A stretch of DNA of 64,000 bases from Escherichia phage myPSH2311. The stretch lies in the sequence record MG976803.1; one strand, 5' to 3'. Shown piece by piece: positions 5,297 to 51,419 of the stretch (its first letter is position 1; every line of letters starts with the position of its first letter). The notes under the pieces are model-generated. The model had not been told where the DNA came from, did not search any database, and was given only the letters and a program-made list of their open reading frames with translations. Position numbers and translations under genes: made by a program.

Positions 5297-5340
5297 TTGC
5301 CGATTTTCAGGTTGAGAACGTACAGGCTTCTTCTCAGAAG

Positions 5341-7453: not shown

Positions 7454-7462
7454 ACATGCGTA

Positions 7463-10579: not shown

Positions 10580-10705
10580 CATCGCCAGCTTAGCGCTGCA
10601 TCAATTGTACCTATTACCAAAGGTGGTACAGGAGCTACTTCATCAGAGAATGCTCGACTAGCTCTAGTTGCAGCTAAGAGTGGTGATAACTCTGATATCA
10701 CCTCG

Positions 10706-12445
10706 ATGACCAACAAGGTTACTTTCACACAATCTCCAGTAATTCCTGATGCTGTAGATGATAATGACGCGGTTGCTTTGAGACAGTTGCATACAAGTGA
10801 AGCAGATTTGCTGGCAAGGCTGAAAAGTAGTAATGCAGGTGAAGGTGCATCCCTTATTACCTTTGAAAATGGTAATTCTGTTGAGAGTCTTTCCAGTAAA
10901 GATGGGGCTAAAAACATTGGCAGTGGTGAGAGAAGTTTGCTTGTCCGTAACAACGACATTAAGCATTCAGGAGATTTCCCTACCTTACAAGCTGCGGTAA
11001 ATGCATCGTTACCAAAAAACGACTTAATTGTTTCCCCCGGTGAATACAGTGAAGCGATTACTATTGGTAGTACACAGTTAAAGGGTGTTGGTGGAGCCAC
11101 GGTACTGAAAGCTCCGTCAAACTTTACAGACACTATTCAGGTTAAGGCATCTACGCCTCATTGGCAATTCCGCCATAGTGGTGGTTTTGCTATAGATGGT
11201 TCTGGGACAACCGGGGCTGTAGGTATTAGTTTTGACCCGACCGACCAATATGCTGGTCGTCACAACTTTAGTGACGTATACATCCATAACATTAACAAGG
11301 CCATTCAGAAACCTTCCGGGAATATAGGTAATACATGGAAAGGCATTGGCGTGCAAGGTTGTGACTGGGGTTACTGGGCACAGTCTGCTTCTGAGATGCA
11401 CTTAGGCTCTGACACCCTTCAGAACATGCACTTTGATGGTATTAGCACTTACTGTGTTTACTTGAACGCTACAACAGGAGAAGCGCCTGGTACATTCGGA
11501 GGTGGTGTAGGCGGCTGGTGGATTAAAGATAGTATTATGGAAGCCTCTGGCGGTGGTGGTATTTACCTCAAGAACAAGGATGGTGACTGCCCTACTGCCC
11601 CATGTGGTGTATCCAATGTATGGATGGAAGCTATCGCTACTACTCCAGCTATTAATGTAGATGGTGTATCTCAGAAGCCTCGTGTCCTTAAACTTATTGA
11701 TACCAGTATCTTCTTTGCAGAGTACACATACCTTAATAACGTAGAGCTTCAGAACTCCAACCTTGTTACTTATGGCTGCCGAGTAGATAATTCAGATGGC
11801 CACATGGATATCTCTGTAGATGCCAACAGCAGTTTTGTGGCTGATCAATTGTACCTGAATGGTAGCTCCGGCAAAGATGTAATGGTACGTTCTGTAGCGG
11901 CTCAGACAGGCAAGATTGGGCAAAGCTGGTCACCTAATATGAGTATGCGTGGATACCTGCCGGAAGGATACATCTATCGTGTACCTGGTAATAAGCTGGT
12001 AGCTAAACCCTTCGATGGAGGTACTGCTGAATTTAGTGGTACGGCAAGCAGCACTGGGAGTTTGCAGCCACAAGGCCAGTTATCTCAGAGCTGCATGTAC
12101 TTCGAAATCCCTGGTGCTGCTGAGTATGAGCTTACTGGTGCTGCATTTCAGATAACTTCCGGTAACTGGTATGTATGGGGCATTAGCACTGAACTGGTAC
12201 AGGGAACCCCTACAAACTTCCGCATCGGTGGAGATATCAATGTAGGTGAAGTATTTACTAAGGGGGGCCAGTGGGTGAGTACCTTTGGTGTAGCTCAGGC
12301 TAGTGCTTCCGGTTCAGTGAACCTGCGCCTAAGTACAGCCGGTACAGGCGGAGTAGTCCTACGCCTCGCTGATTACTTCGTAGCGGAGTTCACTACTCAG
12401 GCAGAGGCTATGCGCTTCGCTAATAGTAGACGTGCCCTGCGTTAA
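10706..12445 (+). CDS. tail fiber/tailspike protein, C-terminal segment
   Basis: 579 aa; frame is open from 10580, directly after the TAG, and encodes VPITKGGTGATSSENARLAL fiber motif before the track start. Confidence 0.55.
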   Translation: MTNKVTFTQSPVIPDAVDDNDAVALRQLHTSEADLLARLKSSNAGEGASLITFENGNSVESLSSKDGAKNIGSGERSLLVRNNDIKHSGDFPTLQAAVNASLPKNDLIVSPGEYSEAITIGSTQLKGVGGATVLKAPSNFTDTIQVKASTPHWQFRHSGGFAIDGSGTTGAVGISFDPTDQYAGRHNFSDVYIHNINKAIQKPSGNIGNTWKGIGVQGCDWGYWAQSASEMHLGSDTLQNMHFDGISTYCVYLNATTGEAPGTFGGGVGGWWIKDSIMEASGGGGIYLKNKDGDCPTAPCGVSNVWMEAIATTPAINVDGVSQKPRVLKLIDTSIFFAEYTYLNNVELQNSNLVTYGCRVDNSDGHMDISVDANSSFVADQLYLNGSSGKDVMVRSVAAQTGKIGQSWSPNMSMRGYLPEGYIYRVPGNKLVAKPFDGGTAEFSGTASSTGSLQPQGQLSQSCMYFEIPGAAEYELTGAAFQITSGNWYVWGISTELVQGTPTNFRIGGDINVGEVFTKGGQWVSTFGVAQASASGSVNLRLSTAGTGGVVLRLADYFVAEFTTQAEAMRFANSRRALR

Positions 12446-12471
12446 GAGTAATGACATTACTATAAGCAAAA

Positions 12472-12487
12472 CCCCGCTTAGGCGGGG
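12472..12487. terminator. stem-loop after fiber gene
   Basis: CCCCGC TTAG GCGGGG hairpin; weak T-tract on plus strand. Confidence 0.35.
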
Positions 12488-12671
12488 TTAGCTTCCATAG
12501 GGTAGTTGTTTTCCCTGATGTAGTGGAATTTATCGGAGACAATGAGCTGGCTGCTTTGTTGCATTCTGATAAATAGTTCATAACTCCCCTTCGAGGTCTT
12601 TAGTAGTAAGTACCTTTAGTAAGTAATGAAACTAATATATCCCAAGAGGTTAATACATAGGAGACAGATAA

Positions 12672-14236: not shown

Positions 14237-17194
14237 ATGGCTCTTTACCCAATAAAATCTTTGGGTGCGGTTGGTGTTATTGCCGACCAATCTCCTACAG
14301 ATCTGGCTCCTAATGCATTTACTAATGCAATTAATGCTCGGTTTGTAGAACAGCGTGTGTTTAAGACGGGGGGCTCTGCCCCTCTTTCTTACGTTGAAAG
14401 TGATAAAGAAATAAGACCATTATCATTCACTTCAATGCCTTTTGACTACTTCAGTGCTAACAATAGTTTCTTACTGGTAGGTACAGATAAGAGTATTTTT
14501 AGATTAAATAATGAATCTATGGTTGATGTTAGTCGAAGAGTGGCTACAGTCACCAAAAAAGCAGTATCTTATGTCAAGATAAACCCCGTACTAACAGAGA
14601 TCGTCCCTAAAGAAACATCTGTTATTATGAATCTTAATGAAAGCAAGGTTCTCGAGGTATCTCTTCTTCCAGAAGGTGTTGTTACTCCATCCCTTGTGTG
14701 GGAGGTTAGTAATCCCTCCTATGGTTCAATATTAGTTGACCCTGATGATAGTAAGAAAGCTACATTGAGTGTCTTATCTAATGAGGGTAGCTTTACTGTC
14801 ACTGTCTCTAATGAAGATGAATCTGTAACTACCAGTATCTCCGTAAAGGTTGTTGATTCTGATTCTGGTATCTTCCTTAACCGGGACTCTGTTCAACTTC
14901 GTAAAGGTGGAACAACCACACTTACAGCAACAACCAGCAAGACCCCACTAACGTGGACTTCTTCTAACCCGTCCATTATATCTGTGGCGCCTAATGGTGA
15001 CACTACTACAGCAATATTAACCGCTCAAGGAGTAGGTAATGCACTGATAACAGTAAGCAATGGGTCTAAAACCTCGGAATGCTCTGTTAGTGTTATCAAT
15101 CAGATTGACAGTATATCTTTAAGTCAAACAGATTTACAAATTAACCGTGGGACGTCATATGTCTTATACTCTAGTTTAATTCCATCAAATGCTGCAAATC
15201 AGAGAATAACTTGGACTTCCTCTAACCCAAATATCGCCACTGTTTCGGGAACAGGTCTTCAAGGAACTGTCTCTGGGTTAACTGCTGGGTTTACAGTTAT
15301 AACAGCAACTACGGAAGAAGGTGAAAGGACCGCCACCTGTAACGTCAGGGTTGAGTTATCAAGTAGGGCCCTTTTTTCTGCTGCATCAGCTCCTTCTGAA
15401 GAACCTAGTTCTACGGATTCAGATATTGACACCTCATCTATGTCAGAGGGCAATGCTTTTTATGACTATTCTATGGTTGATGGTGTTGAAGCCTATTCTA
15501 TAAATGAAGTCATGTCTAGGTCAACTCAGCTTGAATCCTTAACTCTTGACATTGTGGATACTGAAATTGATGTTGGAGATGAGTTAGTAATAACTGCAAC
15601 GGCATTCCCTGAAGGGGAGTACCTTTATAATTGGGTGGTAGATCAGCCGGGGTATATATCCTCTACTTCCACTACCGACTCTTCCTTTACCTTAACTGCT
15701 ATTAAGACTGGCAAAGTGAAGATAACCTGCACTGCTAGTCAAGTAGCTCGTAGAGACTATGAAGCATTTGAGGAGTATCCTTGGTATAATACGATTATCT
15801 CTAACTGCGCAGTATTCACTACTCACTACGAAACCCCTCAAGTAAAAGAGTTTGCCTCTGAGTATTTCACAGATCTTCCGGGGTGGGGTGAGCAGACAAT
15901 AGTAGATGCTAATGGGAACCCTTCTGTTGTAAAATATAACTGGAAGTGCGAAAGGATTCGTGCATTTAATAATCGTCTATTTGCTCTTAATATGCGAGAG
16001 TCTAATGCATCAGGAGTTACTACTCACTACCCTCTTCGACTTCGCTGGTCTAACTATGCTAATGAGAATAAGGCACCTACTTTATGGGATGATTTTGCTT
16101 ATGATAGATATGTGACTTCAGATTTAGCAGCAAATGTTGTAGGTCAAACTGAGGCTCTAGAAAATGGATATGCCGGATACATAGATTTAGCTGACTCAAA
16201 CGGTAGCTTAGTCGAAATTCTTCCTCTTAAGGATTATCTATTTATCTATACGGAGTTTGAGACTTACATTGGATCCCCAACTAACAACACATATCAACCT
16301 CTAATGTTCAAGAAGCTCTTCAACGACTCTGGAATCTTAGCACCTGAGTGTGTAGTTGAAGTTGAGAGCGGACATTTCGTGGTCACTCAGAATGATGTTA
16401 TTCTACACAATGGTGCAACCAAGAAGTCTATTGCATCTAACAGGGTCAAGAATATGCTTATCAACGAAGTGTGTTTAGTAAACCCTTTGGCTACTAAAGT
16501 TCATCTTCACCAAGACAAGAAGGAAGTGTGGATTCTTTATGTAGGACCCGGAGAACCTGCTGGGAGCTTTGCTTGTACGAAAGCCGCTGTATGGAACTAT
16601 GAGTTTGATACGTGGTCTTTCCGTACAATCCCATTCTCTCATTGTATTGGTTTAGTCGATCCTCCTACTTTAGAGAAAGGTCCTACTTGGGTTGATTTCC
16701 AAGAGTACACTTGGGATGACCCTTCAATCAGTGAACTTGTGTGGAGAAAGGATTCTACTAACTTCCGTCAGAGAGTTACTGTAGTAGGTTCTTGGATGAA
16801 AGGTTTTTACCAAGTGGACATAGGTCCTTATGACTACTCTTATGATAGGCTGAATGATATTGTTGTCAAAAAGCCCCTAGAGATGAGACTGGAAAGAACT
16901 GGTATAGATTTTGACAACGTAACTAATGAATGGAATCAAAAGCACATAAACCGATTCCGTCCACAAGTAACCGGGTCAGGTACGTACATATTCCAAGCTG
17001 GTGGTAGTCAGTATTCGGATCAAGAGGATAGGCATATTCATAGTGAAAAGTCTTATACAATTGGTGTGGACAGACATGTAGGTGTCCGACTGAACCATCC
17101 GTATCTATTCTATAATGTTATAGATAATGATGTTAACAGTAATGCAGCAATCAATGGTCTAACTATTGAGTTTGCTGTTGGCGGGCGAAGATAA
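14237..17194 (+). CDS. large virion structural protein with tandem Ig-like (Big_2) domains
   Basis: 985 aa; RBS AAGGAGG; three repeats of the LTWTSSNPSI..VAPNG..G.A.ITV pattern. Confidence 0.6.
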   Translation: MALYPIKSLGAVGVIADQSPTDLAPNAFTNAINARFVEQRVFKTGGSAPLSYVESDKEIRPLSFTSMPFDYFSANNSFLLVGTDKSIFRLNNESMVDVSRRVATVTKKAVSYVKINPVLTEIVPKETSVIMNLNESKVLEVSLLPEGVVTPSLVWEVSNPSYGSILVDPDDSKKATLSVLSNEGSFTVTVSNEDESVTTSISVKVVDSDSGIFLNRDSVQLRKGGTTTLTATTSKTPLTWTSSNPSIISVAPNGDTTTAILTAQGVGNALITVSNGSKTSECSVSVINQIDSISLSQTDLQINRGTSYVLYSSLIPSNAANQRITWTSSNPNIATVSGTGLQGTVSGLTAGFTVITATTEEGERTATCNVRVELSSRALFSAASAPSEEPSSTDSDIDTSSMSEGNAFYDYSMVDGVEAYSINEVMSRSTQLESLTLDIVDTEIDVGDELVITATAFPEGEYLYNWVVDQPGYISSTSTTDSSFTLTAIKTGKVKITCTASQVARRDYEAFEEYPWYNTIISNCAVFTTHYETPQVKEFASEYFTDLPGWGEQTIVDANGNPSVVKYNWKCERIRAFNNRLFALNMRESNASGVTTHYPLRLRWSNYANENKAPTLWDDFAYDRYVTSDLAANVVGQTEALENGYAGYIDLADSNGSLVEILPLKDYLFIYTEFETYIGSPTNNTYQPLMFKKLFNDSGILAPECVVEVESGHFVVTQNDVILHNGATKKSIASNRVKNMLINEVCLVNPLATKVHLHQDKKEVWILYVGPGEPAGSFACTKAAVWNYEFDTWSFRTIPFSHCIGLVDPPTLEKGPTWVDFQEYTWDDPSISELVWRKDSTNFRQRVTVVGSWMKGFYQVDIGPYDYSYDRLNDIVVKKPLEMRLERTGIDFDNVTNEWNQKHINRFRPQVTGSGTYIFQAGGSQYSDQEDRHIHSEKSYTIGVDRHVGVRLNHPYLFYNVIDNDVNSNAAINGLTIEFAVGGRR

Positions 17195-22107: not shown

Positions 22108-23757
22108 ATGCAACAGACAACTTACGCTCAGGTCAGAAGTCGTGACCCGAGAAATACTTTCTATGGTGTTAATCCGGGAGCGGCTTCGGCCTCTCCTTAT
22201 ATGGCTAGACCCGTTCAGACAGCAGATATTTCTATGTATCAACGACCTGCTGTACCTGCTGGGTTATCTGCTCTTGTAGGTCAAACTTCAGTTGATTATC
22301 AGAATATGTTGAATCCTGTTCAGAGTAATGGTCTTCCTTCTGACATTCCGAATGATGTACAACCTCAATCACAACAGGCTGTAACTCTTCCTGAGTTTGA
22401 GAACCAAGAAACCATGCAAGCTGCTGGACTTTCTCCTTCTGCTATTCCTCAAGAATCAGAACCTCTTCCGGTAACACCTCCTACTAAACCGCTAGAAGCT
22501 GGTCCTATGGAGTTTACTCCTTCTCAGGTAGAACAGGCACAAGGTGTGATTAACACTCTTGCTCAAGGACAAGACACTGGTGATGGAATGGCTGCTGCTA
22601 CTCGTGCTAAAGATCAAGAGCGTGTTAACAACGATATCTTGCAAGTTGCGAAAGCTAAAGACCCTTCAGAAGCTTGGAACAAACTACAGAAAGAACCATT
22701 CTATCAGAACTCTAGTTTCTATACAGGTTTGATGGGTGTAGGTCTTTCCATTATGTCAGGTAAGTCTCCTATTGAAGCTTTCCAGATTGGTCAGGGAATG
22801 GCTAATCAGGATGAGACTAAGAAGCAACTGGAAGCTAACCGTGATGCCTTGATTGAACAAGGCTTCTCTCAAGACTCGATCGCAGCTGCTATTGCTAACG
22901 GAGACCCGTCTCTACTGAAGATGAGAGCTGTAGACCCTGCTCAGAAAGAAGCGCTGTATGCTGCTCGTGAAGAACGACAAAATGCTGAATGGGATAGACG
23001 TCAACAGATTCAAGAGCAAACTATGCGTGAGCGTGCTGATGAAACTCGTCGTGCCGCTGAAGAAAGAGCTAACATGAACTTTGAACGTCAGAAAGAGTTG
23101 ATTGGTTATCGTGATAAGGTTAAGGCTGAACGTGCTGAACAAGCTGCTCAGAGTTTTAACTTTAACCCGAAAGAAGTTCGTCTTGCTCAGAATACAGCTG
23201 AAGGTACGGTTGCTAAGCAGTGGGCAGAGAAAGGTGGCCTGTTTAACCAGTCTAACAAAGACTTGGATTTGGCTGATAAAGCTGTTAAGGATAAAGACTA
23301 TCAGACAGCTCGTTCTGCTTACATGCAGGCTATCATGAACTCTGCAAGGGCTGAAATCGGTGCTACTCGTTCTCTTACCGAAGAAGACTTAGGGCACTTT
23401 GCAGAAGACCCATCAATCTTCGTTCGTGTTGGCAACAAGTTTGCACTGAAATCTGGATGGCGTCCTACTGATTCTGCTCTTGCTTATGCTCGTAAGCAAG
23501 CTAACGTTGGTCACACCTCTGCAATGAAAGGTGTTGCTGATGCTAAGAGAGCTACGATTGAAGCTTACATCGGTTCTGGTATGGATAAGAAGAGAGCTAC
23601 TGCATTGGTTAACCGTGCAATCCCTTCTGGTGGTTTCTATGACCCTCTAGGTGTTTTCTCTGAACAAGCAGAAGAAGCAGTTGGTGGTGCAGTAACCAAT
23701 CCTAAGCTTAATGGTGCTTTATCAGCTGTCGAAGACACTAGCTGGTTCACTCAATAA
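22108..23757 (+). CDS. internal virion protein
   Basis: 549 aa, RBS GGAGA; position within internal protein block. Confidence 0.45.
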   Translation: MQQTTYAQVRSRDPRNTFYGVNPGAASASPYMARPVQTADISMYQRPAVPAGLSALVGQTSVDYQNMLNPVQSNGLPSDIPNDVQPQSQQAVTLPEFENQETMQAAGLSPSAIPQESEPLPVTPPTKPLEAGPMEFTPSQVEQAQGVINTLAQGQDTGDGMAAATRAKDQERVNNDILQVAKAKDPSEAWNKLQKEPFYQNSSFYTGLMGVGLSIMSGKSPIEAFQIGQGMANQDETKKQLEANRDALIEQGFSQDSIAAAIANGDPSLLKMRAVDPAQKEALYAAREERQNAEWDRRQQIQEQTMRERADETRRAAEERANMNFERQKELIGYRDKVKAERAEQAAQSFNFNPKEVRLAQNTAEGTVAKQWAEKGGLFNQSNKDLDLADKAVKDKDYQTARSAYMQAIMNSARAEIGATRSLTEEDLGHFAEDPSIFVRVGNKFALKSGWRPTDSALAYARKQANVGHTSAMKGVADAKRATIEAYIGSGMDKKRATALVNRAIPSGGFYDPLGVFSEQAEEAVGGAVTNPKLNGALSAVEDTSWFTQ

Positions 23758-23824
23758 GACCTAAGTCCTGCCTTCTATAATGTATATAGGGGGTAGGACA
23801 TTTTTATTTATAAAAGGAGACGTT

Positions 23825-24172
23825 ATGGCTAACATTAAACCGTGGGAAGAAGCTTCCAAAGCTCCTGCGTATCTGAATGCCTCTCCGGAGCAACAAGCTC
23901 AAATGAGAGAACAATATAAGGCAGCAGGTGGCTCTATTCCTGAGGAACAACCAGTAGCACAACCACAACAAGAAGAACGTGGTGCTATAGGTGAGTTTGC
24001 TCAAGGTGTGTCAAATGCTCTTCAATCTGGTGGTGCAAATATTGCAGCTAGTGCTGCTAAAGGTATTGGTGGTTTAGTTGAGATTGGTGAGAATCTAGCT
24101 GGAGCACAAACTAGTTATGGTAAGCGTATCCAAGAGAACTCTCAGAAAGTCAGTGTCATGAGTTGCTGGTGA
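23825..24172 (+). CDS. internal virion protein, N-terminal ORF
   Basis: ATG at 23825 preceded by AAAGGAGA; G/A-rich; ends 8 nt before the next ORF in the +1 frame. Confidence 0.5.
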   Translation: MANIKPWEEASKAPAYLNASPEQQAQMREQYKAAGGSIPEEQPVAQPQQEERGAIGEFAQGVSNALQSGGANIAASAAKGIGGLVEIGENLAGAQTSYGKRIQENSQKVSVMSCW

Positions 24173-24179
24173 TATCGGT

Positions 24180-26972
24180 TTGACAGTTGCTAACCCATTG
24201 GCTGCTGCTGCTATCATCGCAGGTCGTGAGACAGGTCGTGCATATGCAGACCAAACCCCTGAAGAGGGAGAAGATAAGTCTATTCTAGATGCAGCCTTAG
24301 TTGGTGGTGCTAACTATGCGGCTCAGAGAATCCTTCCGGGTGCTGTCGGTACAGCTGAGTCCACACTTGGACGTATTGGTCAGAACGTTGCTAGTAACGC
24401 AGTGGCTGGTGCTAAAGGTGGCGCTCTTGTGGGTGCTGCTGAAGCTCAGAACAAGCATGGAGATGATACAACCTTTGCTAATGTATTAGAGGGTGCTATC
24501 GAAGAAGGTGCTATGGGTGCTGCATTCGGTGGTGCAGTTGGTGGAGTTCATGGTTTGATTAGCCGTCCAGATTCTGCTGTCTTCAAGAATACTCCAGAGT
24601 ATGCGAAGACTGATATTGCTGCTGATGATGAACTAATTCGTAGTGCTAAGAATATTGATGAACTGAAAGAAGCTTACTCTAAAGCTGAAACTGCTAACGC
24701 TGCTTCTGCTCTGAATCTTCTGGATGAGAATGGATTCCGTATTACAGATGCTGTTGCTGTGGATTCTCCTGCTGCTCAGCGTATTCTTAATACTGACCAA
24801 GCTCGTGCTGAGAAAGCTGCTTCTGTTCAGAAAGAACATTCCAACATTCCGGGCCTTAATCCTTTAGCTTCTCCTGCTAAGACTCGTGGTAAAGCATTTG
24901 CTGATAATGAGCACAACCAGAAGCAGGCTGTTGCTATGAAGGATGCAATGGCTGACTACACCAAAGACAACACGAAAGCTCTTACAGATGTTCTAGATAA
25001 CCTAGACCGTGAATTAACTTCTCTCCGAGCTTCTGGTGATTTTACTGGTAGTCCGATTGATATTAAGAATCGTACACAAGCTGACCGTGATTTCATTGAT
25101 GCTTACAAGACTTTCTACAATGAAGCAAATCGATTCAAAGCTCGTGAAGGTGAAGATTTTAATAACTTTGTAGAGAAAGCTACTGAACTACAGAAGATGG
25201 CTGATAATGTTTCTCCAGAGATGAAGAAAGCTATCGGTGGGTTGAAGAAACTGAAAGGTATGCCTGAAGGTTTTAATCCTATTCAAGATGCTTATACTCT
25301 GAACAATACAGCTAAATTCATGAGCAACCAAGATCGTGGTTGGACTTCCTTGACTGATGATGGATTCCGTGAAGCTTCTTCACCTAGTCTGGTAATGAAC
25401 ACTCTTGGTGCTGCTAAGTATGCTCTGAATCGCTTCTCTTCTCAGCGTGCTCGTTCTCAACGTGTTAAGCAACAAGAATCTAACAGTGAAGCTATCCGCT
25501 CTCTTGCTCGTGGTGATTTGGAAGTTGCTCGTGCTAAATCTACTGCTGATGAAGCTCGTGCTAAGATGGAAGAAGAACCAGTTGTTGATGACATTAAATT
25601 TAAGACGCAAAATGACGTAGAAACCGAACCGGTTCGGGAGCCTTCTTCTAGTACTGTGACGGAAGAAAATCTTCCTTCTTCTACTCCTCAAGAGACTCCT
25701 CTTACAGCTCGTGATTTAGTTGCGCAAAGACGCGCTATCCGTCAGGCTGAACAGCGTCGCGCTGAAGAAGAGGCATTGGCTGCTCAAGAAGCTCCGGTCG
25801 AACAGGCTCCACAGGCTGAACCTCTCCCTGCTCGTAACCCTCTAGAGGAGCGTCGTGCAATGGAACAGCAACGTGCTCAAGAAGAGGCCGCACAGGCTCC
25901 AGAACCTACCGTAGAGGAACCAACAGTCAAAGCTGAGCCATTACCTGCCCGTGCTCCTAAAGCTCCTAAGGAAGCTGTACAGGACGTTAAACCGGCAAGT
26001 GGTGTAGAACGTTTAGCTGCTATGTCTAGTGCTGCTCGTCAGGCTACTAAAGATCGTGCAGAACGCTTTGCTCGTTCTCTGTACTCTAAGGCTGCTAAAG
26101 CTAAAGCTACTGCTGAAAACTTCTTGGCTTATAAAGGTGATCCTAAGGAACTGATGCGTCGTATTCGTCAGGAAGATAATGCTATCAACACTGAACGTCA
26201 TGAAGAAATGGCTCGTAACCAGAGTTGCATGTCCGAAGCGGTTATCGAGGAACGTGGTCTGCCAGAAGACATTGCTACTAAGGCATTACGTGCTGAAGAG
26301 AAAGGTTTAGGTGGGAACGTAACTAACTTGGATAGTCTGAAACGTCGTGCTGAAAGGTTGTATCAGAAGCAGCGTGAAGATGAGTTTGATAGACTGTACC
26401 AACAAGCTCTAGAAGAGAATAAAGCTTTCGATAACAAGAATGCTCCTAAGCTGGTTGACCAGAAGAAAGAGCTTCAGTCTGAGATTGATACTTTGATTGA
26501 TGCAGAACCTTTACGTCCTGCTCAGAAAGACGCTATGCGTAAATTGATGAATGACTTTGTAGATGGAAAGTTTAAATCTTCAGAGAAGGCTGGTAGGGAA
26601 GAGGCTTTGGAAGTTGGTCAGATGAAGGATATTTGGGATGGGTTTATTAACACCTATAACAGAGAAGTGAATGCCTTCAACAAAGCTAACAAGAACTCTC
26701 AGTACGAAGCTGCTGCTAAGCATTTACAGGCTCGTGAAGAACGTCTTGCTACACTCAGGAAAAAGGCTCAGGCTCGTTCGGATGCTAAAGCTGCTGTTGA
26801 GAATGAACGTAAAACTCTAGAGGCTATTGCAGCTCAGAAGAGTGAGATTGAGAAGATGATGGAAGGTTTACCTAAACCTGTTCGTGAGGCTCAGGAATCT
26901 CGTACACTGAAACAGTTGGCTGCTCACCACGATAAGAACTCTCCAGTTCCTCCAGAGAAGTTCCGTAGTTAA
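24180..26972 (+). CDS. large internal virion protein
   Basis: 930 aa; TTG start without SD; G/A-rich N-terminus, long charged coiled-coil segments, internal EPLPAR repeats. Confidence 0.55.
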   Translation: MTVANPLAAAAIIAGRETGRAYADQTPEEGEDKSILDAALVGGANYAAQRILPGAVGTAESTLGRIGQNVASNAVAGAKGGALVGAAEAQNKHGDDTTFANVLEGAIEEGAMGAAFGGAVGGVHGLISRPDSAVFKNTPEYAKTDIAADDELIRSAKNIDELKEAYSKAETANAASALNLLDENGFRITDAVAVDSPAAQRILNTDQARAEKAASVQKEHSNIPGLNPLASPAKTRGKAFADNEHNQKQAVAMKDAMADYTKDNTKALTDVLDNLDRELTSLRASGDFTGSPIDIKNRTQADRDFIDAYKTFYNEANRFKAREGEDFNNFVEKATELQKMADNVSPEMKKAIGGLKKLKGMPEGFNPIQDAYTLNNTAKFMSNQDRGWTSLTDDGFREASSPSLVMNTLGAAKYALNRFSSQRARSQRVKQQESNSEAIRSLARGDLEVARAKSTADEARAKMEEEPVVDDIKFKTQNDVETEPVREPSSSTVTEENLPSSTPQETPLTARDLVAQRRAIRQAEQRRAEEEALAAQEAPVEQAPQAEPLPARNPLEERRAMEQQRAQEEAAQAPEPTVEEPTVKAEPLPARAPKAPKEAVQDVKPASGVERLAAMSSAARQATKDRAERFARSLYSKAAKAKATAENFLAYKGDPKELMRRIRQEDNAINTERHEEMARNQSCMSEAVIEERGLPEDIATKALRAEEKGLGGNVTNLDSLKRRAERLYQKQREDEFDRLYQQALEENKAFDNKNAPKLVDQKKELQSEIDTLIDAEPLRPAQKDAMRKLMNDFVDGKFKSSEKAGREEALEVGQMKDIWDGFINTYNREVNAFNKANKNSQYEAAAKHLQAREERLATLRKKAQARSDAKAAVENERKTLEAIAAQKSEIEKMMEGLPKPVREAQESRTLKQLAAHHDKNSPVPPEKFRS

Positions 26973-27139
26973 TTGCAAGCCTTTTAAGGCGCGCTGAAGC
27001 GGCTTTAAATGGCGCTAAATCGTGCAAAATGCCCATTGGGAGCCTGAATGGCGCGTGTTTTGCATAAGCCGGCGTTTGCCCAGTTCGTAAGGCTGGTATT
27101 TTGCTGTAAAGCGTGATTCATCGCCGCCTGATGCGTACT

Positions 27140-27982
27140 ATGGAAGATAAGGGCATATCTAGAGAGGATGCTGAAGCATTTGCTGGTTCCTATATGGATA
27201 ACCGTTATGCACTTCTTGAGAAGCCTATGACTCCTACTGAACATCAGAATGCTCGTTCTCGTATCGAAGCTGATGTTGAGAAGTTTGCTAAGAAGTACGA
27301 ATCAATGACTCCTATCGAGAAAGAGATTGTTAAGGTTACTGGAGATACTGAAGGTAAGCTTGATAACTTGGATGCGGATACTAGGAAGGCTATTGAGGAG
27401 GCTCAGAAGGTTGACTCTGATATTAAGAAACTGCAAGAGGAAGAGTTGGAGATGGAGAAGATTCGTTCTGCTCTGCCTGATGATGAAAGATCTCAAGCAA
27501 ATTCTGATATCTTGGAAAGCATTAAACAACAGGAAGAGGTCTTTGCTGATAAAGTAGAGAAAGCTTTCTTGAGTGGGAAGAGCTTGGATGAGTTGGCTAG
27601 TGTGGCTGAAGTTTTAGACAGGGTTCATGGTGCAGATAAGGCTGGTAACAACCGTCGCTTTGTACGTGCATTGCAGACTGCTGCTGAAAACAAGAAGAAG
27701 TATGGTGATAATCCAGTAGCTTGGTTTAGTGCTGATGATTACTCTGCCATTGCTAAACTTGGTGCTTCTTCCGCAGGTGGTAACAAATCCAGAGCACTGG
27801 AGAAGATCTTTGGTTCTACAGCTGAACAGGCTAAGAGTAAGTTGCTTGGTAGGGATGATGTAGCGAAGATGAGACGTGTGATTGAAGAGAACCCTGATAT
27901 CAAGATTCCTTCTTACAAGACAGGTCAGGTTTCCAGTCCCAGTCAATGGGCATGCATGGTCCAAAATCGGCCCCTAGGGTAA
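27140..27982 (+). CDS. internal virion protein, truncated by insert
   Basis: track ORF 27113-27982; native-looking reading frame runs to 27922, last 20 codons derive from the filler. Confidence 0.45.
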   Translation: MEDKGISREDAEAFAGSYMDNRYALLEKPMTPTEHQNARSRIEADVEKFAKKYESMTPIEKEIVKVTGDTEGKLDNLDADTRKAIEEAQKVDSDIKKLQEEELEMEKIRSALPDDERSQANSDILESIKQQEEVFADKVEKAFLSGKSLDELASVAEVLDRVHGADKAGNNRRFVRALQTAAENKKKYGDNPVAWFSADDYSAIAKLGASSAGGNKSRALEKIFGSTAEQAKSKLLGRDDVAKMRRVIEENPDIKIPSYKTGQVSSPSQWACMVQNRPLG

Positions 27983-28022
27983 CGTCGGAATCCGGTACGC
28001 TTATGCCCCTAAGTGCATTTTT
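27923..28022. other. 100-bp GC-rich filler between perfect 81-bp direct repeats
   Basis: 27842-27922 is identical to 28023-28103; the intervening 100 bp is unrelated to flanks. Confidence 0.8.
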
Positions 28023-28247
28023 TTGCTTGGTAGGGATGATGTAGCGAAGATGAGACGTGTGATTGAAGAGAACCCTGATATCAAGATTCCTTCTTACAAG
28101 ACAACAAATCGTACTGAGTACTTGCAGTTCTTGGAGAAGTTTAATGACGAAGGGAAGCCTAAGATTAAACGTGGCTCATTGTCAGAGAAGCTTGAACGCA
28201 GTAAGCGTCAATCGAGACTCCGTGTAAGAGTTCGACCTAAGGAGTGA
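28023..28247 (+). CDS. internal virion protein, C-terminal remainder
   Basis: 74 aa; its first 27 codons repeat the duplicated segment of the upstream ORF. Confidence 0.45.
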   Translation: MLGRDDVAKMRRVIEENPDIKIPSYKTTNRTEYLQFLEKFNDEGKPKIKRGSLSEKLERSKRQSRLRVRVRPKE

Positions 28248-28524
28248 TAAAAGAAAAGCCCAGGGCTCGTTCAAGTCAAATGATGGGCTAGTCAATTAAG
28301 CCCCTTGGGCATAGCTGGCAATGCTAGTCACAACTTCTTCATTCATATACCCTCCTAGATTGTGTTTATAAAATTAGTAAGTTTCTCTTCACTTTCATCA
28401 AAAGCTTTTCCAGCTGCTTCCATCTCCCAAGTATCGGCATTGTCAATAAAGCTCTGAGCTTCTAATAGGTCGTGGATTAAGTCGAAGAGTTTATTTTTAT
28501 CTGCTTGTGTGATCATGTCAGTTC

Positions 28525-29256: not shown

Positions 29257-29451
29257 TATAATATCCTTATTACCAAGATTTATCTAACCATGTCCAGTCG
29301 AACAGGTCTTCCGGAGTCTGACCAACAAAGAGCAGCCGAGCATTCTCAAGCATCTTCTCTTCATCTTCAGTATCGAACTTCTTATAATATTCCATTCGTA
29401 CTATATGATACATGGTCCAAGCCTGCATTGAACCGTAAAGCCCTTAGGCTG

Positions 29452-30078
29452 TTAGTTACCACCCCACATAACCTCTTTACGTTCCCCACATCCGGGGATG
29501 TTATCCGTACCATCTCCAATCAACATTTGATAGAAGAAGTTTTGCCATGAAACTAAATCAGATACGTAATGAGGAGGGACTTCTTTCTGTCTTTCTCCAC
29601 AAGCCCAGCGATAATGCCATCCGGGAGTTATCAACAAATCCTTGTCTCTAGTACAGATGATAGTATTCTTATCCCTACGTTGCCTTTCAGCTAGTGCATC
29701 ATCAGCCTCTCTCCCAAAGACCTCAATGTATTCGTACTTGGCTTTAATGTAATCACCAACGTTTTGCCAGTGAAAAGGTCTTTCTCCGGGAGGTCTGTTT
29801 GCCTTGTAGTCTTGTTGCTTAGCAACATCGAAACGGAAGTTACCGCCTTCGCTGAAGTAGAATACAACCTTACTACAACCCGAGCGAGCTATAATTGTAT
29901 CAATCTTGTACTGAAGTCGTTCAATCATGAAATTGTAATCAACTGGAACACGTCCTGTGTCAAGGAAGGGATGCTCCTGAGTAAGAGCACCCACTTCATA
30001 CCGAAGAACGTCAGCGTCCACTATAGCAACTTCAGGGAGCTTAACTTCTTCCATAAATATCATCCTGAGCTTGAGCAA
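29452..30078 (-). CDS. 5-3 exonuclease / flap endonuclease (PIN-like), possibly C-terminally truncated
   Basis: FDVAKQQDYKANR, GREADD, DKDLLI, LIGDGTDNIPG motifs; the helix-hairpin-helix part appears missing. Confidence 0.65.
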   Translation of the reverse strand: MLKLRMIFMEEVKLPEVAIVDADVLRYEVGALTQEHPFLDTGRVPVDYNFMIERLQYKIDTIIARSGCSKVVFYFSEGGNFRFDVAKQQDYKANRPPGERPFHWQNVGDYIKAKYEYIEVFGREADDALAERQRRDKNTIICTRDKDLLITPGWHYRWACGERQKEVPPHYVSDLVSWQNFFYQMLIGDGTDNIPGCGERKEVMWGGN

Positions 30079-41750: not shown

Positions 41751-42095
41751 TTAACTCTCCAAAGTTTTCTTCAGAGCTGCCCATGAGATTGGGTAGAGCT
41801 TAGCCATCTCTTCATCTACGGATTTAGCAAACACTCGAACTTCATATTGAGCGTGAGATGAGAGTCGCTGACGACACAACTCAAACCAGCCATACAAAGA
41901 ACCAGTCCACACCCACTCAGTGATCATCCCCTGAGGAAGAACAAATCGAGCTTGCTCTGGTGCAATAAATTCAATCAACTTGTCATATGTTGCTAGAGAA
42001 GCTTCATATGCATCGTTAATCAACATTAATGCTTCAGCTCGTTCTCCGTCGATGAGTTGAATCCCTGAACCTGCATGGTTTGCCCAAAATGGCAT
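41751..42095 (-). CDS. thyX: flavin-dependent thymidylate synthase ThyX, C-terminal half
   Basis: ARFVLPQG..RLSSHAQYEVR matches ThyX C-terminal conserved block. Confidence 0.6.
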   Translation of the reverse strand: MPFWANHAGSGIQLIDGERAEALMLINDAYEASLATYDKLIEFIAPEQARFVLPQGMITEWVWTGSLYGWFELCRQRLSSHAQYEVRVFAKSVDEEMAKLYPISWAALKKTLES

Positions 42096-42163
42096 TGGCG
42101 CTATAGCATGGGGCTTTTTAAATGGCCCCGCGGGTTAATGCTAATGGCGGATTTTGGCCACGG

Positions 42164-42469
42164 TTATGCATGCGTAGGGAGTTCAACTGCTCCATCTTTA
42201 TACCGCCGGGACATTTCGTTCCACGAGAATCCAACCTGATGCTTGCCCAGCTGTCTCGCAATTGCGATAGGTGCTTTGCATCGGAAACTGACTTGCGGGT
42301 GTCGGAATGGAGTACAGTGTTTTTCCCGTGCAAGGAAGTTGATAAGTTTTGTGTCTCTCTCATTTAAGTCACCTTCTCGAACAACACCGAAAGATACTCT
42401 AGCTGCATTGACTACAGATTTGTCACTACCCATTGCTTCAATCAGTGTTGCTTGTAGTTGTTCGTTCAA
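42164..42469 (-). CDS. thyX: flavin-dependent thymidylate synthase ThyX, N-terminal half
   Basis: AARVSF, HCTPFRH and KH..FSWNEMSRRY resemble the ThyX signature; separated from the C-terminal half by a filler. Confidence 0.6.
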   Translation of the reverse strand: MNEQLQATLIEAMGSDKSVVNAARVSFGVVREGDLNERDTKLINFLAREKHCTPFRHPQVSFRCKAPIAIARQLGKHQVGFSWNEMSRRYKDGAVELPTHA

Positions 42470-42908
42470 TTAAAAGTTCCTTTTTTCGATTCATGTAAAC
42501 TTGATGAGCTTCTTCGGCAGTTCCATACATACCTAGATGTATATCTACTTTATCAATACAAATAACAGCCCTATATCTAATAGTCCCTGATTTATATTTG
42601 ACAACCTTAACACCTTGAAGCCCTGTTTCCTTGTTTGATACCCTAGCCCCGAACTGGTTGTGGCAGTTTGTCGAGGTGTCCACCAATCTCAAGTTCTGTA
42701 TTGAGTTGTTCTTCTTATTTCTATCGATATGGTCTATCTGAGAAGAAGGCCACTCTCCATAGTAAAAGAACCATGCCACTTTATGAGCTTTGTGTACTTT
42801 CCCTTTAAACCGCAGGGTTATGTACTTACTTCGAGTTCCTCCTAATTTCTTACCTTTTCGAAAGAACTCTCCAGTCTCAGGGATATACTCTAAATCATCG
42901 ATTAACAT
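42438..42908 (-). CDS. HNH homing endonuclease with AP2 domain
   Basis: QIDHIDRNKKNNSIQNLRLVD HNH motif, N-terminal YIPETGEFF, C-terminal AP2-like LGMYGTAEEAHQVY. Confidence 0.8.
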   Translation of the reverse strand: MLIDDLEYIPETGEFFRKGKKLGGTRSKYITLRFKGKVHKAHKVAWFFYYGEWPSSQIDHIDRNKKNNSIQNLRLVDTSTNCHNQFGARVSNKETGLQGVKVVKYKSGTIRYRAVICIDKVDIHLGMYGTAEEAHQVYMNRKKELLIERTTTSNTD

Positions 42909-43422: not shown

Positions 43423-44034
43423 TTAGTAAGACACGTCACCACTTGAATGGGACATGTTGCTCTTGACGAAGTAGCAATACTTGCCAAGACCTTCATTAAT
43501 TTCTTGAAGCATACTCTGATCGACAGGGTAGGATGCTAAATCGCCATCAAACTCATCCATCTTCTCAATAATACACATCAAGGTCATGCACATATCAGAG
43601 AGCATACCGTCCATGTCTAGATCAGCATTACCCTCTGAGAACCAGGCATGGGAGAGGTAGTTAGCCGCTGTAGCATCCACCTTAACGCAGTGGTATCGCA
43701 TACGCTCAGCAATACGATCTCCTACCTGTCGTGCGTAATCTTCCAGCTCGTCAAACATACCATGAACACCCTGAAATCCTGCACCAGAGACATTCCAGTG
43801 GTAGTTTTTAGCTTTGATATGCAAGAGTTCCATGTTAGCTTGTAAGCAGCTCAGGATGTGTTCTAGGCTGTTTGCACTAATCATGCCTTGCATTGTTTCA
43901 AGGCGAGAGATTGAAAGCTCAGACCGGTCTAACATACTATAACTGTCACGACCAATCTCAGGTAAATCAAAAACATTCTTATGCATTTGGGTTTTCTCCA
44001 TCAAGTTCAACTGAGTTAGCAACATTACGTGCAA
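43423..44034 (-). CDS. hypothetical protein
   Basis: 203 aa ORF. Confidence 0.45.
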   Translation of the reverse strand: MHVMLLTQLNLMEKTQMHKNVFDLPEIGRDSYSMLDRSELSISRLETMQGMISANSLEHILSCLQANMELLHIKAKNYHWNVSGAGFQGVHGMFDELEDYARQVGDRIAERMRYHCVKVDATAANYLSHAWFSEGNADLDMDGMLSDMCMTLMCIIEKMDEFDGDLASYPVDQSMLQEINEGLGKYCYFVKSNMSHSSGDVSY

Positions 44035-44237
44035 TATTATCCATTACCTGCTGGGTAATTACGATGCAGTTTAGGCATGGTAATGCGTTTAGGCGTCTTG
44101 GGGAGGTGCCCCCAGTTGCAAGCTGATGCTGCGGGTAAATTGGCGCCATGGGAAACGCGTTAATGCGTGCCTGATGTTATCTTTTCTCATGTGTTGCTCA
44201 AGATCCCAAACAACATGAATAGCCCACATCTTTTTCA

Positions 44238-45381: not shown

Positions 45382-45498
45382 TCTTGCTCCTTAGTTATTT
45401 GTTTCCATTTAAGCGTGCATATTTTGGCTAATTTTTGGCGTAAAAGTTTTCGCCCAGTGCCTGATTGAACCGGGTCGTAATTATTGCCCGGGTAGTGT

Positions 45499-45591
45499 TT
45501 AAAATGGCGAGGAATTAACAGCTGAGTGTGGTGCATCAATAACACCATCATCAATTAATTTATGTAACTCTGGACTTCCTAGTAAACTCAT
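45499..45591 (-). pseudogene. diverged duplicate of the dCTP deaminase 5-prime end
   Basis: encodes MSLLGSPELHKLIDDGVIDA then runs into filler; compare MSLLGSVELHDVIDNGYLDA of the intact gene. Confidence 0.55.
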
Positions 45592-45600
45592 TCTTATTCC

Positions 45601-45978: not shown

Positions 45979-46034
45979 CCCTTCAATTGCAAATTGGCGC
46001 CCAATTTGGCAATGATTTGCCCCGTTTGTTAAGC

Positions 46035-49302: not shown

Positions 49303-49515
49303 TTAAATACTTGGCTTCAAGTCTCCGAAGAGCCATGTGGCAATTTTATCTTGTTCTTCGTCGATATGATAAATCCAAGCGATAACAGTTTCACCTGAGT
49401 CCATCTTAACAGCAATCTGAGTACGCTGATAGAAGCTGTCTTCAGGGCTACGTTTGTTGTAACCTTCCAGACGGTCATACGGACCTTCCAGACCTGCTTT
49501 GTCAGTAGCAAACAC
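49303..49515 (-). CDS. AIG2/gamma-glutamyl-cyclotransferase-like protein, C-terminal part
   Basis: continues the 49627-49926 ORF once the filler and 110-bp duplication are removed. Confidence 0.45.
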   Translation of the reverse strand: MFATDKAGLEGPYDRLEGYNKRSPEDSFYQRTQIAVKMDSGETVIAWIYHIDEEQDKIATWLFGDLKPSI

Positions 49516-49606
49516 TTCTACACGAACAGGCTTGTTGTTATTGCTGTGTGCGAGAGAGATGCTCGGGAAGTAGGAACCACCGTAACGGAACAGATCAAAG
49601 TTGTCT

Positions 49607-49706
49607 AATGGGCCGTTTTATGCGGTTTAAAGGCCTTGACCAGTGCATTTGCCCGTTAAATGGCGTGGGGATTTCCCAGTGCGGGTGGCCAGTAAACGTG
49701 TTTTGT
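49607..49706. other. 100-bp GC-rich filler between 110-bp direct repeats
   Basis: 49497-49606 matches 49707-49816; intervening 100 bp unrelated. Confidence 0.8.
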
Positions 49707-49926
49707 CTTTGTCAGTAGCAAACACTTCTACACGAACAGGCTTGTTGTTATTGCTGTGTGCGAGAGAGATGCTCGGGAAGTAGGAACCACCGTAACGGAA
49801 CAGATCAAAGTTGTCTTCAGTCCAACCTTCACCAATTGACTTAGCACCAGCTCGGTCATTAACTAAATAGTTAGCTTGACCACGACGAAGAGAACCATAA
49901 GTTGCTACGTAAATTACTTCTGACAT
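49627..49926 (-). CDS. AIG2/gamma-glutamyl-cyclotransferase-like protein, N-terminal part
   Basis: N-terminal VATYGSLRRGQAN matches the YGSL/YGTL motif of the GGCT/AIG2 fold. Confidence 0.5.
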   Translation of the reverse strand: MSEVIYVATYGSLRRGQANYLVNDRAGAKSIGEGWTEDNFDLFRYGGSYFPSISLAHSNNNKPVRVEVFATDKDKTRLLATRTGKSPRHLTGKCTGQGL

Positions 49927-50137: not shown

Positions 50138-50190
50138 AAAACCTCCAGCTTATCCGAACTAGCCTCCTCTTTCGAAGAGGCTAAAGCAGA

Positions 50191-50621: not shown

Positions 50622-50627
50622 ATATCC

Positions 50628-51419
50628 TTAGTAGTTTACAACAGTGCCATCGTTCAGGGTAAGGCTATTAATCTGCAACACACGACCAAGCTGACGATCA
50701 CTAATTGGTGCGTTCCATCCAGAGCGGTAGAAGTTACGACCACAGAAGAACAAGATCACATTACTTGCTACAGTCGAACCGTTTTCAGGATGCTTGATGT
50801 TAGCGATATAATAACCACGACGCAGATTACGACGGGTTACAGGGTTGATCTCTAACCCTTGCTCTTCAACTTGCATTGTTTCAGGAACAGGTTCCGAAGA
50901 TTCTTCAGCAACTGGCTCGGAGCTTTCCACTGACAGTGCGTAATCCTCATCACCTGCTGGTGAAAATGTTTCTTCCACTTCTTCAACAGGAAGTTCGTAT
51001 GCAACACGATAGTCAGGCTCAACACCAGAGAAGCTCTTAACAAACTCAACAATATTGTGAGTATAGGTTTCCAGAGTTGTTCCAGTCAGTCCCGGAGCTG
51101 TGTTAACTTCCAGAACCCAAGCGTTAGTATTTTTACTAATCAGGTCAACAGCACCAAAGTTCAAACCCAGAGCAGATACAGCTTTGTGAGCTTGAATCAA
51201 AACCTGATCAGGAGGCGCATCTTGGAAGTTTGAGGAATAAACCCAACCAGTGTGATGATTTCGAACGTCTTCACGATAGGAAGGATCTTCACGGTAACCA
51301 TTACGACGAATCTTCTTCTGAACGTAAGTGATAACACCTTCGAATACATGAACACGCCATTCACGATTGGTGAACGATAAGGGAAAGGTCCTTGGCCATA
51401 GCGTGGCGTATGCATGCAT
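50628..51419 (-). pseudogene. ATP-grasp ligase 3-prime half, truncated copy
   Basis: starts within filler and joins ATP-grasp at REWRVHVFEG; retains EVNTAPG motif; lacks N-terminal ATP-binding half. Confidence 0.55.

What the first reader, a model, noticed from the sequence alone, without database searches (positions are those of the whole stretch)
27842..28103. Perfect 81-bp direct repeat flanking a 100-bp filler inside an internal virion protein gene
27842-27922 is identical to 28023-28103. The gene reads into the filler and stops, then a second ORF restarts by repeating 27 codons. Removing filler plus one repeat restores one continuous ORF.
Basis: seen in the sequence. Interest (0 to 1): 0.55.

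Follow-up and report, generated by a model that had tools for sequence, protein, structure and literature searches.

The report
Sequence-joining artefact, not a gene insertion
The perfect 81-bp repeat around a 100-bp filler is really in the sequence, but it is almost certainly a computer-made joining or patching artefact in a badly assembled phiEco32-like coliphage genome, not a biological insertion.

Summary
In detail: 27842-27922 and 28023-28103 are identical (81 bp) and flank exactly 100 bp (27923-28022). The gene is the homologue of phiEco32 gp26, a 1473-aa virion protein (phrog_14629).

Every relative examined carries the 81-bp unit once, inside one continuous CDS. The filler matches nothing in phages, E. 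coli genomes, plasmids, or viral, metagenome and genome contigs. It has no RNA family, fold signal, promoter or terminator.

It is one of 27 window-specific orphan blocks:
- Five are exactly 100 bp, and a sixth is 100 bp by its best alignment.
- A twin event has a perfect 110-bp repeat around a 100-bp filler at 49497-49816.
- The same fixed spacer also covers deletions of 38 bp to 4.7 kb.
- The fillers share a non-native, non-random, strand-fixed composition.
- Together they break the portal, TerL, capsid and gp26 (four pieces), so the sequence cannot be a viable phage.

The closest public record, myPSH1131, was built by reference-guided contig ordering (CONTIGuator, gaps filled with Ns). It carries its own ~100-bp orphan blocks.

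Verdict: two pieces overlapping by 81 bp were concatenated across a fixed 100-position spacer holding made-up bases. Not a real feature; low interest.

The parts
23825..28247 (+). Homologue of phiEco32 gp26 (1473-aa virion protein, phrog_14629), present as four fragments in frames 2/3/2/3
   Evidence: tblastn of phiEco32 gp26 gives q1-109 at 23825-24151, q131-1081 at 24162-26969, q1158-1426 at 27116-27922 and q1400-1473 at 28023-28244. PHROG assignment. phiEco32 and Paul annotate it as one continuous 4422-bp CDS; the EcP-vB record has no CDS annotated there but is collinear and uninterrupted at this junction.
27842..27922 (+). Repeat copy 1 (81 bp, 27 in-frame codons): the end of the left sequence piece
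   Evidence: 100% identical to copy 2. Aligns to phiEco32 locus L001 2227-2307, which is present once there.
27923..28022 (.). Filler of exactly 100 bp: non-native, matches nothing in any database, GC 0.53 against 0.42 for the window
   Evidence: No homologue in phages, E. coli genomes or plasmids. No exact 23-26-mers in viral, metagenome or genome contigs. No Rfam hit. Fold z-scores +0.97 and -0.03. No promoter or terminator. Leave-one-out composition score groups it with the other fillers; only 0.7% of native 100-mers score as high.
28023..28103 (+). Repeat copy 2 (81 bp): the start of the right sequence piece
   Evidence: It continues 100% identical to EcP-vB, Ec3-ASingh and phiEco32 up to 28261.
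26976..27115 (.). Upstream orphan block of 140 bp, replacing 221-226 bp of gp26 coding sequence and introducing a stop at 26970-26972
   Evidence: Alignment, junction table, composition score 0.205 bits/base.
28262..28329 (.). Downstream orphan block of 68 bp, replacing about 150 bp that hold the native terminator and most of the small gene phi32_27
   Evidence: Alignment, annotation, junction table.
49497..49816 (.). Twin event: a perfect 110-bp direct repeat (49497-49606 = 49707-49816) around a filler of exactly 100 bp (49607-49706), inside the gp77 (gamma-glutamyl cyclotransferase) homologue on the minus strand
   Evidence: Repeat family D7. Subject overlap of -110 in all three relatives. 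The unit is single-copy in EcP-vB, phiEco32, Ec3-ASingh and myPSH1131. gp77 is split with residues 38-73 duplicated.
42079..42178 (.). Another filler of exactly 100 bp, replacing 38 bp inside the thymidylate synthase homologue
44072..44171 (.). Another filler of exactly 100 bp, replacing 452 bp of native sequence
45409..45508 (.). Another filler of exactly 100 bp, lying between diverged overlapping copies (45323-45408 and 45533-45618, 79% identical)
51367..51466 (.). A 100-bp filler (by its best, 99.8% alignment) between copies 1 and 2 of a three-fold tandem ~1.4-kb block

Best explanation
The repeat plus filler is an in-silico joining artefact, not a change in the phage's DNA.

Two sequence pieces, one ending at 27922 and one starting at 28023, truly overlap by 81 bp on a single-copy stretch of the gp26 gene. 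They were concatenated across a fixed 100-position spacer instead of being merged. That turns the overlap into a perfect direct repeat. The spacer positions now carry arbitrary, non-biological letters. The real phage should carry one copy of the 81 bp and an uninterrupted reading frame at this point.

The most likely route is reference-guided contig ordering of a fragmented, mixed-strain assembly. ABACAS and CONTIGuator-type tools put runs of N between ordered contigs. The N spacers were later overwritten with made-up bases.

What is shown: the anatomy, the single copy in relatives, the orphan status of the filler, the recurrence of the same architecture and spacer length, and the non-viability of the window.

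What is inferred: which software or person made the joins, and how the spacer letters were produced.

The confidence of 0.6 is for this specific route. The broader claim, that the structure is non-biological by any route, I put at about 0.95.
For: 1. Relatives carry the 81-bp unit once, and phiEco32 and Paul annotate the gene as one continuous 4422-bp CDS. All 30 listed hits among 95 matching records span 1186-1192 bp, the length expected for a single copy, and no record covers the filler.

2. The flanks are 100% identical to EcP-vB and Ec3-ASingh right up to the filler edges.

3. The same architecture recurs at 49497-49816: a perfect 110-bp repeat around exactly 100 bp, and 110 is not a multiple of 3.

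4. Of 27 window-specific orphan blocks, five are exactly 100 bp, a sixth is 100 bp by its best alignment, and more are 94-99 bp.

5. The ~100-bp spacer sits equally over overlaps (-81, -110, -1293, -1270 bp) and over missing sequence (+38, +207, +452, +2006, +4717 bp). That is what a fixed spacer between ordered contigs gives.

6. The filler matches nothing in any collection and has no functional signature.

7. The fillers form one compositional class. The finding's filler scores 0.116 bits/base in a leave-one-out test. Dinucleotide chi-square is 238, p=3e-46. Shared 7-9-mers far exceed shuffles, yet the fillers do not align to each other.

8. The filler bias and motifs keep the window's + strand orientation in both the + and - gene halves, whereas native skew flips. 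This indicates text-level rather than biological origin.

9. The patches break the portal, TerL, capsid, gp26, exonuclease, ThyA and gp77, and delete the tRNA-Arg, so this cannot be a replicating phage.

10. The closest public record, myPSH1131, is 100% identical over long stretches. It was built with CLC plus CONTIGuator against a reference (PMC6200275). CONTIGuator fills gaps between contigs with Ns (PMC3133546). That record has its own ~100-bp orphan blocks, and a filler-styled 30-nt patch where the window is native.
Against: - The spacer is made of A/C/G/T, not N, so a standard scaffolder output alone does not explain it. A further step that wrote letters into the gaps has to be assumed.
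- Many orphan blocks are not 100 bp. Blocks of 9-36 bp replace 60-97 bp of ordinary coding sequence, which fits scaffold gap estimates poorly.
- That ABACAS places exactly 100 Ns between overlapping contigs is my recollection of its manual. The papers I could read did not confirm it.
- No reads are available, so absence of the junctions from real DNA is not directly shown.
Confidence: 0.6

Rival explanations
1. The window was patched at the sequence-text level after assembly, either deliberately or by a generative process. A script, a person or a sequence-generating model replaced or inserted stretches with made-up bases and sometimes re-copied the preceding 81 or 110 bases. Contig overlap plays no part. 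This is still non-biological; it differs from the best explanation only in how the artefact arose.
For: - The fillers are clearly not random sequence and share idiosyncratic motifs (ATTGGCGC, ATGCGTGC, TTAAATGGC, GCATGCATGCATGCAT), always in the window's + orientation.
- Short fillers of 9-36 bp replace 60-97 bp of unrelated coding sequence, which is hard to derive from scaffolding.
- The public myPSH1131 copy carries an independent patch in the same style at a place where the window is native.
- Both perfect repeats are exact copies of the sequence just upstream.
Against: - The ~100-bp spacer sits precisely at joins where collinear pieces overlap or leave gaps relative to every relative.
- The three-fold tandem block consists of genuine natural variants, which looks like real contigs of mixed strains rather than invented text. 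Copy 1 is 100% identical to myPSH1131, copy 2 is 99.8% to EcP-vB, and copy 3 is 99.8% to ES17 and to myPSH1131.
- The documented CONTIGuator pipeline for the nearest record gives a ready source of fixed spacers.
Confidence: 0.3
2. A real tandem duplication of 81 bp, with 100 bp of foreign or untemplated filler DNA at the junction. It would have arisen by illegitimate recombination or template switching in a real (possibly defective or engineered) phage, truncating gp26.
For: - The repeat is perfect and lies in frame with the gene.
- Duplication junctions with filler DNA are known in other systems (own knowledge).
Against: - There is a twin event with the identical 100-bp spacer length, and at least four more 100-bp orphan blocks.
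- The filler belongs to a compositional class shared by blocks that replace native sequence all over the window.
- The genome as written lacks an intact portal, TerL, capsid and gp26.
- No relative shows the duplication and no collection holds the filler.
Confidence: 0.03
3. A small mobile or functional element: a MITE or IS-like insertion with target duplication, a DGR template/variable repeat pair, an intron, or a translational bypass cassette.
For: - Direct repeats flanking an insert superficially resemble target-site duplications.
- The repeat lies near the 3' end of a virion protein gene, as DGR variable repeats often do.
Against: - No terminal inverted repeats.
- The fillers are not alignable copies of one element.
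- Duplications of 81 and 110 bp are far beyond known target-site duplications (own knowledge).
- There are zero differences between the copies at all 25 adenines, and no reverse transcriptase. The window is collinear with annotated relatives that have none, and window-specific ORFs give only HNH or Big_2 hits or nothing.
- No Rfam intron or other RNA family, and folding is no better than shuffles.
- There is no stop codon directly after the would-be take-off codon, as gene-60-type bypass requires.
Confidence: 0.01

Closest known systems
Pseudomolecule joins made by reference-guided contig ordering (ABACAS, CONTIGuator and similar)
   Same: - Collinear pieces are placed in reference order and separated by a spacer whose length does not reflect the true distance.
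- Overlapping ends become direct repeats and missing regions shrink to the spacer length.
- Strain-variant contigs that map to the same place end up in tandem.
- The nearest public genome (myPSH1131) was made this way (PMC6200275, PMC3133546).
   Different: - The spacer here is A/C/G/T rather than N.
- Many other patches of 9-36 bp, 68 bp and 140 bp do not have the fixed length.
Escherichia phage myPSH1131, GenBank MG983840.1 (Kuravirus-like)
   Same: - 100% identity with the window over many kilobases.
- Same three-fold tandem ATP-grasp block and same tail-fibre alleles.
- Same lack of the tRNA-Arg.
- Its own orphan ~100-bp blocks and fragmented genes.
   Different: - It lacks window 27116-28261 altogether and has misplaced copies of other genes there.
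- It carries the 110-bp unit once.
- Its orphan blocks have different sequences and partly different positions.
phiEco32 gp26 (phi32_26, YP_001671771.1; phrog_14629)
   Same: The window's fragments are 95-100% identical in protein sequence and collinear with it.
   Different: In phiEco32 it is one 1473-aa CDS. In the window it is four fragments with 27 codons duplicated.
Genuine mobile insertion in the same window: HNH endonuclease ORF at 42438-42908
   Same: It is also a window-specific segment absent from the four relatives compared.
   Different: It has phage-like GC (0.38), a complete ORF and a Pfam HNH_3 hit. This is what a real insertion looks like here, and the filler has none of these features.

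Membership tests
Contig-join or scaffold spacer artefact | The flanks are overlapping ends of one collinear native sequence that is single-copy in relatives | tested here: met
   Subject overlap of -81 in EcP-vB, phiEco32 and Ec3-ASingh, with flanks 99.4-100% identical. The unit is single-copy in relatives.
Contig-join or scaffold spacer artefact | A fixed spacer length recurs at other joins, whatever the true gap or overlap | tested here: met
   Five orphan blocks of exactly 100 bp, one more by best alignment, and several of 94-99 bp. They lie over overlaps from -81 to -1293 bp and over deletions from +38 to +4717 bp.
Contig-join or scaffold spacer artefact | The spacer is written as N | tested here: not met
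   The spacer is A/C/G/T. An extra step that overwrote the Ns has to be assumed.
Contig-join or scaffold spacer artefact | No reads span the spacer junctions | not testable with these tools
   No read data are available.
Transposable element or MITE insertion with target-site duplication | Short target duplication, terminal inverted repeats, and homologous copies elsewhere | tested here: not met
   The duplications are 81 and 110 bp. There are 0 inverted repeats. The fillers do not align to each other. No copy exists in any collection.
Diversity-generating retroelement (TR/VR pair) | A reverse transcriptase nearby and adenine-specific differences between the repeats | tested here: not met
   The copies are identical at all 25 adenines. 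No RT is annotated in collinear relatives and none appears among window-specific ORFs.
Natural tandem duplication | Head-to-tail copies without foreign spacer, in an otherwise intact genome | tested here: not met
   A 100-bp orphan spacer lies between the copies, and several essential genes are broken elsewhere in the genome.
Self-splicing intron or structured RNA insert | A match to a known RNA family, or folding better than shuffles | tested here: not met
   No Rfam match at E<=1. Fold z-scores are +0.97 and -0.03.
Programmed translational bypass (T4 gene 60 type) | A take-off codon followed directly by a stop, a matching landing codon, a stable hairpin, and conservation in relatives | tested here: not met
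   The frame reads 20 sense codons into the filler before the stop. There is no fold signal. The insert is absent from all relatives.

The most novel reading that the evidence does not exclude
The junctions exist in real DNA. A phiEco32-like phage, or an engineered or defective derivative, would carry an 81-bp in-frame tandem duplication with a 100-bp untemplated or foreign filler. This would split the C-terminus of the large virion protein gp26 into a truncated protein plus a 74-aa restart product.
Probability: 0.02. Interest if true: 0.35.

Novelty: not a real feature. Interest (0 to 1): 0.05.

Why it matters
There is no biological significance. The gp26 gene of this phage is expected to be intact at this point.

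The practical value is for data hygiene. The window, and the closely related public record myPSH1131, contain stretches of letters that match no known sequence and look non-biological. These sit at contig joins and create false repeats, false frameshifts, split genes and missing genes, including the tRNA-Arg and a ~4.7-kb block.

Such records can mislead comparative genomics. One Kuravirus study already excluded four genomes for assembly errors (PMC9965538). They can also mislead gene-family clustering and any model trained on them.

Tried and rejected
- **Filler as a known sequence.** blastn with word size 11 at E<=10 against phages, E. coli genomes and plasmids gave only chance hits of 22-25 nt at E about 3. 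Exact scans with two filler 23-mers, the repeat/filler junction and the twin filler found nothing in viral, metagenome or genome contigs.
- **Filler as a functional element.** No Rfam match, fold signal, sigma-70 promoter or terminator.
- **Fillers as copies of one mobile element.** An all-against-all comparison gave only 12-13-nt matches between two blocks.
- **Fillers as scrambled native sequence** (reversed or complemented only). No hits.
- **Fillers as plain uniform random sequence.** Rejected: dinucleotide chi-square 238, p=3e-46, with an excess of shared 7-9-mers.
- **A common native element removed by the short patches.** The replaced 60-97-bp pieces are unrelated coding sequence.
- **The window as a copy of GenBank myPSH1131.** Rejected. 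It contains native sequence that record lacks, and its patches differ.
- **Sister record myPSH2311 (MG976803) as the source.** It is not in the collection, so this could not be tested.
- **ABACAS paper for '100 Ns between overlapping contigs'.** The text says only that gaps are N's.

Full report
**1. Observation**

The window holds two identical 81-bp copies, 27842-27922 and 28023-28103, separated by exactly 100 bp at 27923-28022. Copy 1 starts in frame with ORF 27113..27982, so it spans 27 codons. The ORF runs 20 codons into the filler and stops. A mechanical ORF 28023..28247 (TTG start, 74 aa) begins at the first codon of copy 2.

**2. What the locus is**

The window is a phiEco32-like (Kuravirus-group) coliphage. 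A megablast of 27000-28400 hit 95 phage records, 70 of them at 95% identity or more.

The gene is the homologue of phiEco32 gp26. That is a 4422-bp, 1473-aa CDS, annotated as continuous in phiEco32 and Paul. It belongs to phrog_14629, function unknown. The Paul annotation notes that the phiEco32 protein is virion-associated. 'Internal virion protein' is therefore plausible from gene order but not established.

Pairwise BLAST and MAFFT alignments show that window 27116-27922 and 28023-28261 map to overlapping coordinates in every relative, with a subject overlap of 81. Identity is 99.4-100%. The 81-bp unit occurs once in EcP-vB, phiEco32, Ec3-ASingh and Paul. So the window differs here by a 181-bp insertion, made of the filler plus a second copy.

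**3. The filler**

It has GC 0.53 against 0.42 for the window. It has no meaningful match in 50,697 phage records, 5,426 E. coli genomes or 72,556 plasmids at E<=10. No exact 23-26-mer from it occurs in the viral, metagenome or genome contig collections.

It matches no Rfam family and folds no better than shuffles on either strand (z = +0.97 and -0.03). It contains no promoter-like or terminator-like site.

**4. The locus is not unique**

This is the decisive result. A whole-window repeat scan found a structural twin: 49497-49606 equals 49707-49816 (110 bp, 100%) around another filler of exactly 100 bp. The twin lies inside the gp77 homologue on the opposite strand.

Comparing the window with four complete relatives gives 27 orphan blocks totalling 2673 nt. 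Five are exactly 100 bp (starting at 27923, 42079, 44072, 45409 and 49607). A sixth, 51367-51466, is 100 bp by its best alignment, and several more are 94-99 bp.

The junction table shows the ~100-bp spacer lying over two kinds of join:
- overlaps of -81, -110, -1293 and -1270 bp;
- missing native sequence of +38, +207, +452, +2006 and +4717 bp.

Other blocks of 9-36 bp replace 60-97 bp of ordinary, mutually unrelated coding sequence. At all these junctions the independent isolates agree with each other and the window is the outlier.

**5. Nature of the fillers**

A leave-one-out second-order Markov test separates the orphan blocks from native sequence. The finding's filler scores +0.116 bits/base. 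Native 100-mers average -0.16 (sd 0.08), and only 0.7% score as high.

The fillers are not uniform random sequence. Dinucleotide chi-square is 238 on 9 df, p=3e-46. AA and GC run at about 1.75 times expectation, while GA, TC and AC run at about 0.4 times. They share 7-9-mers such as ATTGGCGC, ATGCGTGC and TTAAATGGC far above shuffle expectation, for example 82 shared 8-mers against 18±5. Even so, they are not alignable copies of one element.

Motif sharing and the G>C, T>A skew keep the window's + strand orientation in both halves of the genome, although the native skew flips with gene direction. That points to letters written onto the text of the sequence, not DNA that evolved in place. They are also not reversed or complemented native sequence.

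**6. Consequences for the genome**

As written, gp26 lies in four pieces in frames 2/3/2/3. The portal is frameshifted after residue 578. TerL lacks its first 38 codons. The capsid gene has 207 bp replaced by 95 bp. The exonuclease, ThyA, gp73 and gp77 are split. The conserved tRNA-Arg is gone along with about 2 kb, and about 4.7 kb is missing at 54527-54623. This cannot be a replicating phage. So removing the filler and one repeat repairs only this junction, not the gene.

**7. Provenance**

The closest record overall is Escherichia phage myPSH1131 (MG983840.1). It is 99.9-100% identical to the window over many kilobases and shares the odd three-fold tandem block at 49.8-54.5 kb.

Its paper states that CLC de novo scaffolds were ordered against a reference with CONTIGuator2 (PMC6200275). 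The CONTIGuator paper says that, as in ABACAS, gaps between contigs are filled with Ns (PMC3133546). My recollection that ABACAS puts 100 Ns between overlapping contigs could not be verified in the text I could read.

The public record has fragmentary, duplicated annotation. It has its own orphan blocks of 100, 100, 100, 99, 99… bp. It also has a 30-nt patch in the same filler style, replacing 41 nt that the window keeps native. At shared joins the two sequences have different filler. They therefore look like two independently patched versions of one fragmented contig set.

Among 36 Kuravirus-like genomes, only myPSH1131 and myPSH2311 lack the tRNA, and four genomes were excluded for assembly errors (PMC9965538). 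The sister record MG976803 is not in the collection, so I could not test whether it is the window's source.

**8. Explanation and rivals**

Best explanation: two pieces overlapping by 81 bp were concatenated across a fixed 100-position spacer that now holds made-up bases. I put about 0.95 on the structure being non-biological by any route. I put about 0.6 on the specific route of reference-guided contig ordering followed by overwriting of N spacers.

The main rival (0.3) is later text-level patching by a script, a person or a generative process. It explains the short non-100-bp patches and the filler style better. It explains less well why the spacers sit at contig-like joins between genuine strain-variant pieces.

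A real duplication with filler DNA gets 0.03. The mobile-element, DGR, intron and bypass readings together get 0.01. Each of those fails its defining features:
- no inverted repeats;
- no homologous copies;
- repeats identical at all 25 adenines, and no RT;
- no RNA family or fold signal;
- no stop codon directly after a take-off codon.

A genuine insertion in the same window, the HNH endonuclease ORF at 42438-42908, shows what a real one looks like: phage-like GC, an intact ORF and a Pfam hit.

**9. Verdict**

Interest is low (0.05). The only value is as a flag on the quality of this sequence and of related public records.

Noticed in passing
window 49497-49816: A twin of the finding: a perfect 110-bp direct repeat around a filler of exactly 100 bp, inside the gp77 (gamma-glutamyl cyclotransferase) homologue on the minus strand. 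The unit is single-copy in four relatives.
   Followed up: yes
window 49779-54526: Three tandem copies of a ~1.4-kb block (gp78-gp80, ATP-grasp region), 90-98% identical to each other and separated by ~100-bp fillers. Each copy is a genuine natural variant: copy 1 is 100% to myPSH1131, copy 2 is 99.8% to EcP-vB, and copy 3 is 99.8% to ES17. The same triplication is in the public myPSH1131 record. It looks like strain-variant contigs laid side by side.
   Followed up: partly
whole window (27 blocks, list): Orphan blocks totalling 2673 nt break or truncate the portal (5296-5307), TerL (2069-2077), the major capsid gene (7368-7462), gp26, the exonuclease (29420-29455), ThyA (42079-42178) and gp73 (45992-46074). 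The sequence as written is not a viable phage.
   Followed up: yes
window 60549-60647 and 54527-54623: A 99-bp filler stands in for about 2 kb that holds the conserved tRNA-Arg in relatives; the window has 0 tRNAs. A 97-bp filler stands in for about 4.7 kb (gp81-gp86 region, including the glutamine amidotransferase and amidoligase genes).
   Followed up: partly
L010/L011 (GenBank MG983840.1, myPSH1131), e.g. 43970-44069, 53386-53485, 68562-68661, 71206-71235, 23104-26481: The public record, labelled 'complete genome', has its own orphan ~100-bp blocks. It has a 30-nt filler-styled patch replacing 41 nt that the window keeps native. It also has a misplaced second copy of the gp23-gp25 region where the C-terminal part of gp26 should be. 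This is a likely curation issue.
   Followed up: partly
window 42438-42908 (minus strand): A window-specific 440-bp segment encodes a 156-aa HNH endonuclease (Pfam HNH_3, E=1.6e-13) next to the thymidylate synthase homologue. It looks like a genuine homing-endonuclease insertion and contrasts with the fillers.
   Followed up: partly
window 45323-45408 and 45533-45618: A diverged 86-bp direct repeat (79% identical) flanks the 100-bp filler 45409-45508 at the start of the dCTP deaminase homologue. It appears to be overlapping ends from two different strain variants.
   Followed up: partly
window 9584-12585 and 14563-15754: Tail-fibre region sequences absent from phiEco32, EcP-vB and Ec3-ASingh but shared with myPSH1131. 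They have normal composition and long ORFs with no Pfam hit, and probably represent natural receptor-binding protein variation.
   Followed up: no
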